Positions 45,834 through 55,064 of a stretch of 64,000 bases of DNA are shown piece after piece (the first letter of the stretch is position 1; every line of letters starts with the position of its first letter). Both the position numbers and the translations under genes were made by a program. This DNA is from Octopus vulgaris (Eukaryota), in assembly GCA_951406725.2 (NCBI GenBank), contig OX597828.1, positions 63,302,001-63,366,000 of the forward strand. Direction: 5' to 3'. Below the pieces are notes generated by a model. The model was not told where the DNA came from, did not search any database, and worked only from the letters and a program-made list of their open reading frames with translations.

Positions 45834-45854
45834 CTTACCTATCTATCTATCTAT

Positions 45855-46861
45855 ACGACGACGATCTTGGGGCGAACCTGGACGTAGACGAGGAATACCT
45901 GACCCGCCTGATCGGGACGACTTTCGGGCCAAGGCCCATGGACAACTTCCAGAGATCCCTGGCCTGGCAGTGCTACCGAGAAGCGCTACCCGTTCGGGAT
46001 AAGCTCTACAGACACGGCTCGAGAAACACGGGGCCGACCTGCCCGAGATGCGGTCAGAGCGACGAAACCGTTCTGCACGCACTCGTGCAGTGTCCAACAA
46101 TTTCCGACCTGTGGGCTTATGTCGAACAACTGCTGTCACGTGTGGGACGAGTCGGTTTATCAGCTGTGTCTATCGTCAATATTGTCACGCCTCCTTCCTT
46201 CAAACGGGAAGGAAGAGCTATTTTCATCATCCTTGTGGCTATGGCGAAAGAATGTATCTGGTGGACGCGTCTGAAAGGATTGGAGACAAACACTTTCCTC
46301 TCTGGTCAATCTCTCATCAACTTCTTCAAGTACCACTTGAAAAGGAAAGTGAGAGTAGAGAGGCAAGTTTTGTCTAGCGAATGTTTTAAAAAAAGATGGG
46401 TGAATGTAGCAAGGATGGCACGTATGAATGACAAAGCCACCTTGAGCATAATCCTATGAACCCAGAAATTGAAAACAGAGGGTTACCCACTTGCAAACAA
46501 ATGTGGTAACATATAACAATATTGACCGAGGTTACCGTGGTCTTTTTCGTAGGCTTTTCTTTCCACGGATAAACCTTATCTGCTTCCCCCTTTACACCGT
46601 ACATCATGACACTGTGATACACGATCCCTATTGATCGTTTTTTTCCTCTTCCCCTTTTTTCCCCTTTTTTCTTCTTTTTTCCTTTTTCTTTTCCTTTTTT
46701 TCTTTTTTTTTTTCTTCTTTTTTTTTTCGTTTTTCCCTTTTACGATCCCTTTTGATCGAAAGCCTACGCCTTTTTTTTTTGTTTTTTTCATCCCCAAAAG
46801 AAAAGCTCTACCTTGTAATTTGTCCCATCTGTGTGCAGCCCTGTGTGGCCAATAAAGAAAC
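45855..46861 (+). mobile_element. 5'-truncated Tx1-like (L1 group) LINE with zf-RVT zinc finger, within (TATC)n
   Basis: Uninterrupted frame ...SLAWQCYREALPVRDKLYRHG...CPRCGQSDETVLHALVQCP...LW (stop 46459); 3' UTR ending aataaagaaac. Confidence 0.92.
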
Positions 46862-47248: not shown

Positions 47249-47302
<54 letters not shown>

Positions 47303-47655
47303 AATGAGATAGGGGTTGAAAATTCCACCCACCATGGGATAACATATATCCAATATACTGCTAGATAGGTACCCAACAAGACTAATACATAGATGTTAAA
47401 AATTGCCAAACAATCAGTTCATCTATTGTATTATATGGGTAAAGGTAATAATATTACCGTAAATTAATACTACAAAATTAGAAAATGGAGAAACATACTT
47501 AAATCAATAAAACATCAACTATCAGATGATACCCAATCAATACTTTATTACACCATTACATATCAGTAAAGGCATTATACAAAATATACAGTAAATGTAA
47601 ATAGACAAAGAGATATAAGTATAAAATTTCAAATATAATATGTAATTAAATAATA

Positions 47656-47765
47656 TCTGACAGCTGTTTCGGCAGCAAGGGCAGTCATACCTCATTTAAC
47701 CTATAAGCCATAAAGGCAGGTATAAATGAGGCATTAACAAGGATGCCCCACGGCCTCTTCAGAGA
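47656..47765 (-). ncRNA. Type I hammerhead ribozyme of the Penelope-like element
   Basis: tct-CTGAAGA-ggc[85-nt helix II with internal hairpin]gcc-GAAAC-agct-GTC-aga. Confidence 0.85.
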
Positions 47766-48100
47766 ATTAAATTTGTTATAATTGTGAAAAAATTATTTTT
47801 CCATATACATATAAATATAAAAATATAAAAATGTAAAATATAAAAACTTATGCATAAACTTCATAATGCTACACTTATATAATATAATACTCATTGGTAC
47901 AATAATGCAAGGTAAACAAAACAAAATAAAACAAAATATATATCAGTGTATATATTAATATTAATAAGCACAGTTATTATACATATTTGGCTAATAGTTT
48001 TAAAAAACTAACACATAGGGAAATGAAAAATAATAATTAAAACCATGGTTCAGTTCATAAAATTATAAAGCTATAAAAGTCAATAAAAATTACTATTAAT

Positions 48101-48155
<55 letters not shown>

Positions 48156-49786
48156 GATACAGTTATGTTTGCACCAAGTCCATCCTTTCAAGATCGAAAT
48201 AACTATGAGTTTAGAAATTCTGACCACTAGGTAATGATTATTTAGATTAATTCGATTGGCTAGTAGTTTGAAATTTAAATCACAAAAGAAATTTTACGGT
48301 TAGTTAGTCAAGGAACGCCAATATTCACACGCGCATCCACAGATCAATCGCACATACTTACATAATTATATGTATACACACACACATACACTTATACACA
48401 TACATAACCACAAGCAACAACTAGCACATAGATAAACAAAAAGGGGAGCAACTATGCTGCCATTTAGTCTTTCAAAATTATAACTATGCCTCAAATAACA
48501 AAAAAGATCCACTCATGCATTTCCATAAAATATTTATTTTAAAGATATATATATTTTTTAAAATATCAGTATGTTACGATGTCAGATACTATTTCATTGG
48601 GTAACTTAAAATTTATAACACCGGTTTATTGCATAGTAAACATACCGGTTATTAGATTTACCGTAAGTTTGTTATGATTCCAAGTACGCTAAGATATAAA
48701 ATATATATTAATTTATATATTATAAATATATCTCTTTTTTACTTAATAAATTCAATGCCATAATATACCAGATTAGGCATTAAATAATATCAACATGGGG
48801 AAGTACTAATGCAATCGTATATAAGAACATCACAGAAATTTTAAAAAATTTATATATTATAAATACTTAAGATAAAATGTGATAAAATAAATAAGAAGGA
48901 ATAATTACGGTTACACACATATTATAAGTACAAACCAGTATATATGTATTCATATATTATTAAAATAAAAATAAATGATAGATATGTATGTATAAAACTA
49001 CACTTGTATAAGTAAATAAGTAAAAAATAAATAGATAACAAATTAGATGACTTGATATGTATGTATAAATCTACACTTAAATAAGCAAATAAATAAATAA
49101 TTAGAAGACTAAATGCAGAGATAGATACCATTACAATAAAATAAAAAATAAAGTGAATATATATATTATATTGATGAAAGTAAACATGTATGGAAGGATA
49201 ATTTAAAGTACAGATCCAGAAGACTATAGATATAAACTAAATATATAAGGCTGGTAATATTTATAAAGCCAAATGTTTGTAAATGAAAAGGTTTATTAGT
49301 AAATAGCATAAGATACAAATTAAGGTGAGTACAAAGAAAGACCAAATATACAATATAAACCTGCCAAATAAACACATACAAAAAACCTAGATTCTCAACC
49401 TAAACAAACCAAACTCATGAAAGGCTCTCATATATTACATATTACACAAATGCATTACATTATCTAGAGCTAGGTATCTAACCAAGATATACATAAACAC
49501 TATGCAATATTAGAAAACTTCAAAAATCACATATTACAAGGCAAATACCAAAATGAATATGTTATTTCATGTCATATTGCATTTCCCTTAAAAACAAGAC
49601 AAAAACCCACATATAAAAAACAAGAAACAATTAATACTAGACACATCTATTATTATTATACAAATGTAGCTATAAAATTATAAAATTATAAATTTATAAG
49701 TTGCATACTTTAGAATTATAGAAGACCACTGGTATAGTTAGTTATAGAAGGGAGTTAAAAATTATTAATAGTAGAAGTGCTAAGTT

Positions 49787-50919
49787 CTATTTGAATCTAG
49801 AAAAGGTGAACGGTAGTCTATGAATGCAAAAAAAGTTTTTTTCATTTATGTTGTTAATAATTTGCCTACCGCTTTAATAATGAAAAAAATTTCATTAATA
49901 CATAGAGAGCATTTTTTATTTTTTCCATTATACACAGGTGCTGAAGTTAGTATTTTCCAGTTTAATCTAAAATCTAAGTTCTTACTTTTAAGTTCCCAGA
50001 TGTATGCACTTAGCCCTGTAGAGTACATTCTATTTTTATTTCTAAAAGTATATCTGTGATAATTCAATCTCTGTTTTATGCTATTCATAGTTGCCCCGAT
50101 GTACACCCTACTACTCAATTGTGTATCTACAGTGCATTGGTAAACTACCTCCTTCCTGAGGCATTGATTACCAAACACACATTTATTTCTGTTTCTGCAA
50201 TTACAAAGATTAACAGAATGAGGTAATCTAAGATTGGTCCCCACCCCTGTACCACCATTCACATTATAAGTGTTACAATTGTTATCATCATCCAAACCCA
50301 AAATCAACGAATGAGTTAATTTCACATTATTGGCTATATTCCTATCACTAGTACTAGTATTGGTAGTAGTAGTAGTATCATCTATTACATTTATATTATC
50401 CCTAGCAGGTACGGTGCACTCATAATTAGTAAGGGGGTTGTTCACATTAGTTCCAAGAAAGTTTCTGTTCCTATTATTATTAAAGAGGGGCAAATTTCCA
50501 TTGTCTAAATTCAATTTTCTATCCTTATAGAAGTAATCCAGTTTCCTGTTATTAAAAGAGGAGATAATGGTGGCTAGATTATGAGTAATGCTATATCCCA
50601 CTCTAACAGTACCGTTGTTAATTAAAGGACTAAATTTATTCTTATCCTTACCAAAATGCCTAAATATAACATTATGCAAAGCTCTCACTATGTTTGTTTT
50701 AATCTGCATTGCATATGGGATAATCAGCCAGAGTGTATCCTTATCAGAATTAGGATTGCCTATCGAATTATTGTTATTTGTAAAAATCCTATTCCTAGAC
50801 CAACCTATAAGTTTACTATTCTTACCACTGTCATTGTTATATCTATCTATATCAATATTCCCATGATTATTACGCAAGTAAACTTTACCATTATCATGTC
50901 TACCATAAGTTTTAATATG
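49787..50919 (-). pseudogene. Penelope-like ORF C-terminus: linker + GIY-YIG endonuclease (Neptune-like Cys motifs), one frameshift near the end
   Basis: CNCRNRNKC..GNQCLRKEVVY, RVYIGAT, KQRLNYH, LSAYIWELK, CSLCINE; the terminal INEKNFFCIHRLPF motif lies in an adjacent frame (stop 49787). Confidence 0.88.
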
Positions 50920-51100
50920 TTATTTAATTACATATTATATTTGAAATTTTATACTTATATCTCTTTGTCTATTTACATTTACTGTATATTTTGTATAATG
51001 CCTTTACTGATATGTAATGGTGTAATAAAGTATTGATTGGGTATCATCTGATAGTTGATGTTTTATTGATTTAAGTATGTTTCTCCATTTTCTAATTTTG

Positions 51101-51155
<55 letters not shown>

Positions 51156-53907: not shown

Positions 53908-53967
<60 letters not shown>

Positions 53968-53968
<1 letters not shown>

Positions 53969-55064
53969 TTTTATCCTTCGAAACGTTTAGTAGATGAAAC
54001 TTTAGCGACTGAAGAAGGGGATTTTTCGTTGTGCTTATTGTCCTGTATCTCCTTTTTTTTTTTTTTTTTGCCTGTCTTGTTCCTTGGTTTGTGTCTATGT
54101 TTTTCGTCTCTCTATGTGTTCGACGTCTTTTTGGTGTCCTGTACACATATATGCGTGTATATGTACATGTAGAGGTAGGTACGTACATATATGTTTATAT
54201 ATATGCATATATTTTATTAACATATTATACGACTAAACGCACGCACCCTATTAAGTAAGATTGTTCTGTTTATCAAGTTCGCCTTGATATTAACTCTCAC
54301 GCGACTCTGCATCTTTCTTTCTTTCTCTCCCATTCCCTTTTTCGTCTTTTTTCCCTCACTTAACTTGTCTCTTCCTCTCTCTCTCCCCCTCACTGTTCTT
54401 CATGGTCTCCTCGCACCATTCCCCTTCTTCTCTCTCTTCCTCTTGCTCCTCCTCCCCCATTCCCGTCGTCCATCTGCGACGATACTTCCGTCGTAACTGC
54501 TATCCTGTCCTTTCTCGCCCGCCTTCTAAGGCTACTGGTCGACATCTTCCTCTCTCGTCGTCCACTATAATCCAGCGTTTGCAATACTTTTTTCGTCTGG
54601 CGTTAACAGCCCTTCTTATCTTGTTCTCCTTGTCCTGTCTCTCACTGTTATATATTTATTTTTCCACTGTTTATATATATATTTTTTACTGTTTATATGT
54701 TTGTACTGTCGTTACCGTCTTGTTTTTTTTACCCCTCTGCGAAAAGATCTCAGAATTTTAATTGATTTGCTTTTCTCAGGAAGGAATTTTTCTTCGAAGT
54801 ATACGTCTCGCTTTTATCCTTCGAAACGTTTAGTAGATGAAACTTTAGCGACTGAAGAAGGGGATTTTTCGTTGTGCTTATTGTCCTGTATCTCCTTTTT
54901 TTTTTTTTTTTTTTTGCCTGTCTTGTTCCTTGGTTTGTGTCTATGTTTTTCGTCTCTCTATGTGTTCGACGTCTTTTTGGTGTCCTGTACACATATATGC
55001 GTGTAAATTTACATGTAGAGGTAGGTACGTACATATATTTTTATATATATGCATATATTTTATT

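What the first reader, a model, noticed from the sequence alone, without database searches (positions are those of the whole stretch)
47472..51101. Penelope inverted repeat starts 5 nt from the ribozyme cleavage site
Seen: 50920-51101 is a perfect 182-bp reverse complement of 47472-47653. The predicted hammerhead cut (GUC^, minus strand) falls between 47659 and 47658, so the inverted piece corresponds almost exactly to the 5' end of the downstream cleavage product. Inference: self-cleavage defined an RNA end that was copied and joined to the truncated body during this insertion, a genomic footprint of in vivo ribozyme activity. Perfect identity suggests a young insertion.
Basis: partly seen in the sequence, partly recalled or inferred. 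Interest (0 to 1): 0.72.

Follow-up and report, generated by a model that had tools for sequence, protein, structure and literature searches.

The report
Jumping-gene arms stop at ribozyme cut
This mirror-image repeat is the usual two-armed shape of a Penelope-type jumping gene, but across 246 arms from other copies, those begun at one of its two fixed start points end just after the predicted ribozyme cut about five times more often than background, which likely records occasional self-cutting of the copied RNA in living cells.

Summary
The 182-bp inverted repeat is exact and begins 5 nt after the predicted cut of a type I hammerhead. The element is a 5'-truncated Penelope-like element (PLE) with Hydra-clade protein motifs, inserted in (TA)n. 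Cleavage does not build the inversion. The fixed ends are the outer ones: all 97 head-to-head insertions examined pair one arm ending about +190 with one ending about +362 after the cut (a ~170-nt tail), and the inner ends vary. Of 246 other arms, 17 end at +1..+12 against 4.5 expected; 16 of these are +190-primed arms, while +362-primed arms read through (1 of 72). The excess recurs in a subfamily without a TA run there and drops at the cut. Against it: only one arm starts exactly at +1, 212 of 229 read through, the split by priming site was post hoc, and no RNA or bench data exist. Best reading: two-site priming plus occasional late ribozyme cleavage. The scan noted similar patterns earlier in other families and genomes.

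The parts
47252..47296 (.). (TA)n target, left side
   Evidence: sequence
47297..47466 (-). ~170-nt 'tail' between the two fixed priming sites S2 (+187..+194) and S1 (about +361..+366); present only on the long arm
   Evidence: outer ends of family copies fall at these two sites
47472..47653 (-). segment +6..+187 after the predicted cut; 5' UTR-equivalent part of the pLTR, duplicated in the inverted arm
   Evidence: a tandem copy, L187, continues from this part to the ORF's ATG at +493
47645..47772 (-). type I hammerhead motif: short stem I, ~85-nt stem II, 2-bp palindromic stem III, predicted cut 47659/47658
   Evidence: cleavage not tested
47773..49845 (-). long AT-rich 3' UTR (about 2.1 kb)
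   Evidence: shared with other copies at 91-98%
49846..50919 (-). 5'-truncated ORF: Asn-rich linker, CxCx5C motif and GIY-YIG-type endonuclease; a frameshift near the end cuts off the last ~25 codons seen in intact copies; no RT left
50920..51101 (+). inverted arm primed at S2 (+187), ending at +6; carries the same rare T at +7 as the long arm
51102..51147 (.). (TA)n target, right side
   Evidence: sequence

Best explanation
This is a two-armed insertion of a Hydra-type Penelope-like element, likely made by priming both nicked strands of a (TA)n target at two fixed RNA sites (about +362 and +190 after the hammerhead's predicted cut), and its short arm ends at +6, inside a family-wide pile-up that likely marks RNA cut by the ribozyme in a minority of events. 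Shown: the two fixed outer ends, the one-of-each pairing, the variable inner ends, and an excess of ends at +1..+25 confined to +190-primed arms. Inferred: both arms copy the same RNA; the +362 arm is usually made first on uncut RNA; the ribozyme sometimes cuts later in the complex (roughly 1 in 8 of the +190 arms that get that far); the second cDNA runs off the cut end, loses a few bases and is joined to the first cDNA or the target.
For: 97 of 97 head-to-head pairs are S1+S2. 23 of 60 overlapping pairs share an inner stop within 25 nt against 3.3 by permutation, and the S2 arm is the longer in 44 of 93 pairs, so it is not simply a fold-back copy of the S1 cDNA. Both arms here share a T at +7 seen in 1 of 204 read-through copies. 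Ends at +1..+12: 16 against 3.1 expected in 171 S2 arms, 1 against 1.4 in 75 S1 arms; 16/157 vs 1/72, Fisher P=0.015. The rate falls back to background just upstream of the cut (29 ends at +1..+25 vs 10 at -24..0, P=0.004). Subfamily C has no TA run at +1..+16 and was chosen beforehand as a control; it gives 5 against 1.15 and no end at -27..+4. Adjusted for TA runs and AT content, rate ratio is about 4 for S2 and 0.5-0.6 for S1. The end-caller is unbiased in simulation (49 true, 51 called). There is no excess at the 3' edge of the much stronger stem II. Two internal start sites, extension of both strands and protein-assisted cleavage were shown in vitro for another PLE (PMC11167929).
Against: There is no spike at +1: one arm (L130) starts there, and a pattern for a pure TA flank joined at +1/+2 has 0 hits genome-wide, against 4 at +3..+6. 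The excess is spread over 25 nt. 212 of 229 arms read through. The S1/S2 split was noticed after seeing the data, and P rises to 0.04 for +1..+12 after conservative duplicate removal. Subfamily A has six S2 ends at -25..0 (2x, P=0.09), so its edge is blunter. TA runs attract ends elsewhere (-160..-135, 2.4x). The long arm here reads through the cut, so one pre-cut RNA cannot explain both arms. In anole PAc, ribozyme mutants did not change insertion in vitro and no RNA reads began or ended at the cut. Within-family covariation is too slight to prove the fold (1 pair of 35).
Confidence: 0.58

Rival explanations
1. The RNA 5' end near +1 is a transcription start site in the pLTR, not a cut. S2 arms primed in the upstream pLTR run off it.
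For: PLE transcripts start inside the pLTR (review passage, PMC6765202; PMC8557442). A start site gives the same one-sided edge.
Against: It would have to fall within about 5 nt of the predicted cut by coincidence. A start site exists before either priming, so S1 arms primed in that pLTR should also stop there, and they do not (1 of 72). TATA-like words lie at -283 and -222, not about -30.
Confidence: 0.13
2. The RT primed at S2 goes first and pauses at the 3' edge of the folded, uncut ribozyme (stem I, +1..+14).
For: Ends spread over +1..+25 rather than peaking at +1. It explains S2 specificity if S2 is first, and fits this insertion, where the long arm reads through.
Against: Stem II holds -38.8 of -42.3 kcal/mol, yet its 3' edge shows no excess (-25..0: 10 observed, 10.4 expected). 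Stem I is short and differs among subfamilies, while the excess occurs in all three.
Confidence: 0.14
3. The ends collect there only because +3..+25 is AT-rich and offers microhomology to the (TA)n target or the other arm; the 5-nt distance is chance.
For: Solo ends often sit on TA runs (rate ratio 1.4-2.3). Subfamilies A and B have ATAT at +3.
Against: The excess persists in subfamily C without that run and after adjustment. It is absent from S1 arms crossing the same sequence, whereas the -64..-40 cluster hits both arm types alike (13/127 vs 6/69).
Confidence: 0.11
4. The inversion is an assembly artefact or a later rearrangement.
For: Long reads were not available, so the junction is not independently confirmed.
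Against: The same geometry, with ends at the same two sites, recurs across the 97 pairs found at separate places in the assembly (this one among them) and is the described PLE structure.
Confidence: 0.02

Closest known systems
Hydra clade of C-terminal EN+ Penelope-like elements (Craig et al. 2021, PMC8557442)
   Same: RT followed by C-terminal GIY-YIG EN; RWR for RWK, DKT, CxCx5C linker, no CCHH cysteines, CxxC and CxH around the conserved E and N; hammerhead present; (TA)n target.
   Different: Unit of about 5.5 kb rather than under 3 kb, from a ~250-aa Asn-rich linker and a 2.1-kb 3' UTR. No tree with named Hydra members was built.
Typical PLE insertion with inverted 5'-truncated pLTR and optional tail (Arkhipova et al. 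2013, PMC3846280; PMC8557442 Fig. 2 legend)
   Same: Head-to-head arms, tail on one end only, palindromes at some junctions, Asn-rich insert between RT and EN.
   Different: The tail is about 170 nt, not 30-40. The pairing is strictly one arm per site (97 of 97). The 2013 paper proposes self-priming on an antisense template; these data fit two primings on the sense RNA.
Poseidon PAc of green anole, in vitro (Frangieh et al. 2024, PMC11167929)
   Same: Two internal RT start sites bounding the tail, both target strands nicked and extended, AT-rich target, protein-assisted hammerhead.
   Different: There the two sites are adjacent and not strand-linked, the ORF starts inside the ribozyme, and no RNA ends were seen at the cut. 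Here the sites are 170 nt apart and always paired, the ATG is at +493, and genomic ends pile up after the cut.
L1 twin priming (recalled, not looked up)
   Same: A second target-strand primer copies the same RNA and gives an inverted 5' piece.
   Different: In L1 the second primer anneals at variable places; here it uses one fixed site, and the arms overlap in 60 of 93 pairs.
Minimal type I PLE hammerheads (Cervera and de la Pena 2014, PMC4209133)
   Same: In the pLTR; palindromic short stem III implying a dimer; G10.1-C11.1; short stem I.
   Different: Stem II is about 85 nt against 6-8 bp, and there is no extra base between positions 9 and 10.1 in the fold used here.

Membership tests
EN+ Penelope-like elements | Single ORF with RT and C-terminal GIY-YIG endonuclease | tested here: met
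   Copy L182 encodes 954 aa with YRDD and VVY...YIG; 115 homologs at E<=1e-20. Pfam and PDB scans of the protein itself gave no useful hit, so domain names rest on motifs.
EN+ Penelope-like elements | Partial tandem/pLTR, inverted 5' copy, tail at one end | tested here: met
   L187 partial tandem; 97 inverted pairs with one tail each
Hydra clade | RWK motif and DKG changed to DKT | tested here: met
   RWR at 45 and DKT at 146, no DKG (definition)
Hydra clade | CxCX5C linker; CCHH absent; CxxC and CxH flanking E and N | tested here: met
   CNCRNKNKC at 816, no cysteine pair inside GIY-YIG, CSLCINE at 914, CIH at 942
Hydra clade | Insertion into (TA)n and a detectable hammerhead | tested here: met
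   junction tallies; fold
Hydra clade | Generally short (under 3 kb; stated as a tendency) | tested here: not met
   about 5.5-kb unit
Hydra clade | Phylogenetic placement with named Hydra families | not tested
   no reference sequences fetched
Type I hammerhead ribozyme | Core CUGANGA, GAAA, UH and three stems | tested here: met
   CUGAAGA, GAAA, GUC; 98% of cells paired in 36 copies. Rfam gave no hit.
Type I hammerhead ribozyme | Covariation supporting the stems | tested here: inconclusive
   1 of 35 pairs with a two-sided change; copies are 93% identical
Type I hammerhead ribozyme | Self-cleavage after C17 | not testable with these tools
   needs in vitro assay or raw RNA reads
Neptune/Nematis/Poseidon clades | CCHH motif with two cysteines inside GIY-YIG | tested here: not met
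   absent in the protein and, by the pattern used, in 0 of 115 homologs

The most novel reading that the evidence does not exclude
PLE integration is an ordered two-primer reaction: one target strand always primes at the tail end and the other at the inner site, and the hammerhead fires between the two steps inside the integration complex, so only second-primed arms end at the cut. PLE ribozymes would then cut in the germ line at a late step, and genomes would record the order of the reaction.
Probability: 0.35. Interest if true: 0.78.

Novelty: new variant of a known kind. Interest (0 to 1): 0.52.

Why it matters
Whether PLE hammerheads cut in vivo is stated as open in the papers read (PMC4209133, PMC8557442, PMC11167929). 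An excess of genomic ends right after the predicted cut, confined to one of the two primed arms, is indirect in vivo evidence and says when cutting would happen. The one-arm-per-site rule and the 170-nt spacing make the two priming events easy to tell apart, so this family suits a bench test of the order of steps. I did not find either pattern in eight literature searches; subscription papers and supplementary figures were not visible.

Tried and rejected
Rfam scan: no hammerhead hit, only microsatellite-driven miRNA matches. Pfam and PDB sequence scans: nothing useful. BLAST and X-drop end calls overran into TA flanks and inflated the cluster at +3, so they were replaced by a pair-HMM checked by simulation. 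A sharp spike at +1 was tested and not found. A pile-up at the ribozyme's front edge, suggested by earlier notes on other genomes, was not seen: 9 of 172 at -125..-95, about what the 0.17%/nt background predicts. Fold-back copying of the first cDNA was rejected as the general route because the S2 arm is longer in 44 of 93 pairs. Perfect arm identity was rejected as strong dating evidence (19 of 48 pairs). RNA ends around the cut could not be examined. Searches held wrong motifs; the subfamily listing and the S1/pair counts were redone in 51 and 61 (the S2 junction tally was unaffected).

Full report
Observation. The repeat is as described: 50920-51101 equals the reverse complement of 47472-47653 at 182 of 182 bases. 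Both ends of the insertion run into (TA)n. On the minus strand CUGAAGA begins at 47762, a long stem II follows, and GAAA-C-AGCU-G-UC ends at 47659, giving a predicted cut at 47659/47658. Positions below count from that cut (+1 = 47658). The arm spans +6..+187. The motif folds well (z -3.77) but Rfam does not detect it, and the copies are too alike for covariation to prove the stems.

The element. The body 50919-47297 holds the C-terminal part of an ORF, a 2.1-kb 3' UTR, the hammerhead and 362 nt beyond the cut. A longer copy (L182) encodes 954 aa with an RT and a GIY-YIG-type nuclease. A tandem copy (L187) shows the part after the cut continuing to the ATG at +493. The protein has RWR, DKT, CxCx5C, no CCHH cysteines, and CxxC and CxH, the features listed for the Hydra clade (PMC8557442 section 11). 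It is longer than usual, with an Asn-rich linker (21% N). No tree was built. The family has 666 exact hits of one 29-mer in the 2.8-Gb genome. The closest named homologs are from Argonauta hians, so an octopod host is likely; this is an inference.

What builds the inversion. Outer ends of copies fall at two places, S2 (+187..+194) and S1 (about +361..+366), each with a few bases matching (TA)n. Among all loci held, 97 of 97 head-to-head insertions have one S1 and one S2 arm. These loci are not a random sample, but the anchors could not exclude same-site pairs. Unpaired ends were 106 S2 and 35 S1. Inner ends vary from +159 to -4431. In 93 pairs with a junction gap of 60 or less (4 dropped), the S1 arm stops before S2 in 33 and passes it in 60. 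Of those 60, 23 share an inner stop within 25 nt against 3.3 by permutation, and the S2 arm is the longer in 44 of 93 (BLAST-based ends, approximate at AT-rich junctions). Both arms in the window carry a T at +7 found in 1 of 204 read-through copies. This fits two primings on the same RNA, matching the two internal start sites and two-strand extension shown in vitro for anole PAc (PMC11167929). An inverted pLTR with a tail on one end is the described PLE structure.

Do ends track the cut? Three samples were taken without regard to 5' ends: the first 100 of 666 hits of a 29-mer, all 87 hits of a subfamily A 36-mer, and 101 arms carrying a subfamily C 37-mer (105 hits; count). Ends were called with a pair-HMM that is unbiased in simulation. 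The window's own arms, overlaps between samples, one duplicate and arms ending before entry were removed, leaving 246. Ends at +1..+12: 17 against 4.5 (P 6e-6; scan-corrected about 0.0005); at +1..+25: 29 against 9.0; at -25..0: 10 against 10.4. Subfamily C lacks a TA run at +1..+16 and was chosen in advance as a control; it gave 5 against 1.15 and no end at -27..+4. Splitting by priming site, which I did after seeing the data, the excess is in S2 arms (16 of 157 vs 1 of 72, P 0.015). After dropping 7 possible duplicates of 247 (two were subfamily C events in the window of interest and probably not duplicates) and adjusting for TA runs and AT content, rate ratios were 4.2 and 4.0 for S2 and 0.6 and 0.5 for S1. 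Fisher P was 0.04 for +1..+12 and 0.006 for +1..+25.

Against. 212 of 229 arms read through. One arm starts exactly at +1. Genome-wide junction patterns with a pure TA flank gave 0 hits at +1/+2, 4 at +3..+6 and 8 places at -25..0, four of them the same junction on one contig. Subfamily A has six S2 ends just upstream of the cut. TA runs attract ends elsewhere. In PAc, ribozyme mutants did not affect insertion in vitro and no RNA reads ended at the cut. No raw RNA reads were available.

Mechanism. Shown: two fixed priming sites, strict pairing, and an S2-only excess of ends after the cut. Inferred: the nuclease nicks both strands of (TA)n; S1 synthesis usually comes first on uncut RNA; the ribozyme, which by its palindromic stem III probably needs a partner copy or protein help, cuts later in a minority of complexes; the S2 cDNA runs off and is trimmed and joined. 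A variant in which S2 is used in an upstream, already cut pLTR of a tandem RNA is not excluded. With a rate ratio near 4-5, about three quarters of ends in this window belong to the excess. Multiplied by about 0.6 for cleavage, this junction is a cleavage footprint with probability near 0.45-0.5.

Age. The window's body has 9 near-private positions of 3621 and is 98.3% identical to the closest long copy held, so it is young within the family. Arm identity adds little, since 19 of 48 pairs are also perfect.

Literature seen. PMC11167929: parts 1-2 of 4, plus a search of 3 supplement files held as text with no hits; its figures S1-S2 were not visible and may bear on genomic ends. PMC4209133: parts 1-2 of 4. 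PMC8557442: passages and section 11. PMC3846280 and PMC6765202: passages. bioRxiv 10.64898/2026.07.22.740005: part 1 of 5. L1 twin priming is recalled. Searches showed no report of cut-site pile-ups or strict pairing in what I read. Earlier scan notes describe similar patterns in other families; they were consulted after the main analysis, are unchecked and are not counted as support.

Verdict. The structure is known; the long tail and the arm-specific signal at the cut are the new parts. Interest 0.52.

Noticed in passing
window 45843-46459 (+) and T-rich run 46630-46790: Open frame with a CPRC...H..C zinc-finger-like motif typical of the 3' end of an L1/Tx1-type non-LTR element (label recalled).
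   Followed up: no
window about 53950-54200 and 54800-55050: A ~250-bp stretch appears twice about 840 bp apart, seen as near-identical translations.
   Followed up: no
L187:1070-9901 and L188:1-5534: Near-full-length partial tandem of this family with an inverted long arm; L188 also holds a separate 1101-aa frame with endonuclease- and RT-like motifs of a LINE.
   Followed up: partly
L187, L335, L344: Three places where the sequence continues past S1 towards the ORF (partial tandems); these are the candidates for expressed source loci.
   Followed up: no
L094:7460-7482 and L151:7405-7425: Apparently solo S2 copies with a ~10-nt S1 arm at the 5' junction (2 of 55 checked), so some solo copies are abortive pairs.
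   Followed up: partly
stem II internal loop, window 47674-47680: Subfamily differences concentrate in the 4-5 unpaired bases next to the core-proximal stem II, a possible tertiary contact with stem I.
   Followed up: no
L137/L138 and L191-L195: The same truncated copy with the same flank occurs at four places on one contig, a segmental duplication.
   Followed up: partly
family-wide, -64..-40: A second cluster of 5' ends near the apex of stem II, in both arm types alike.
   Followed up: partly
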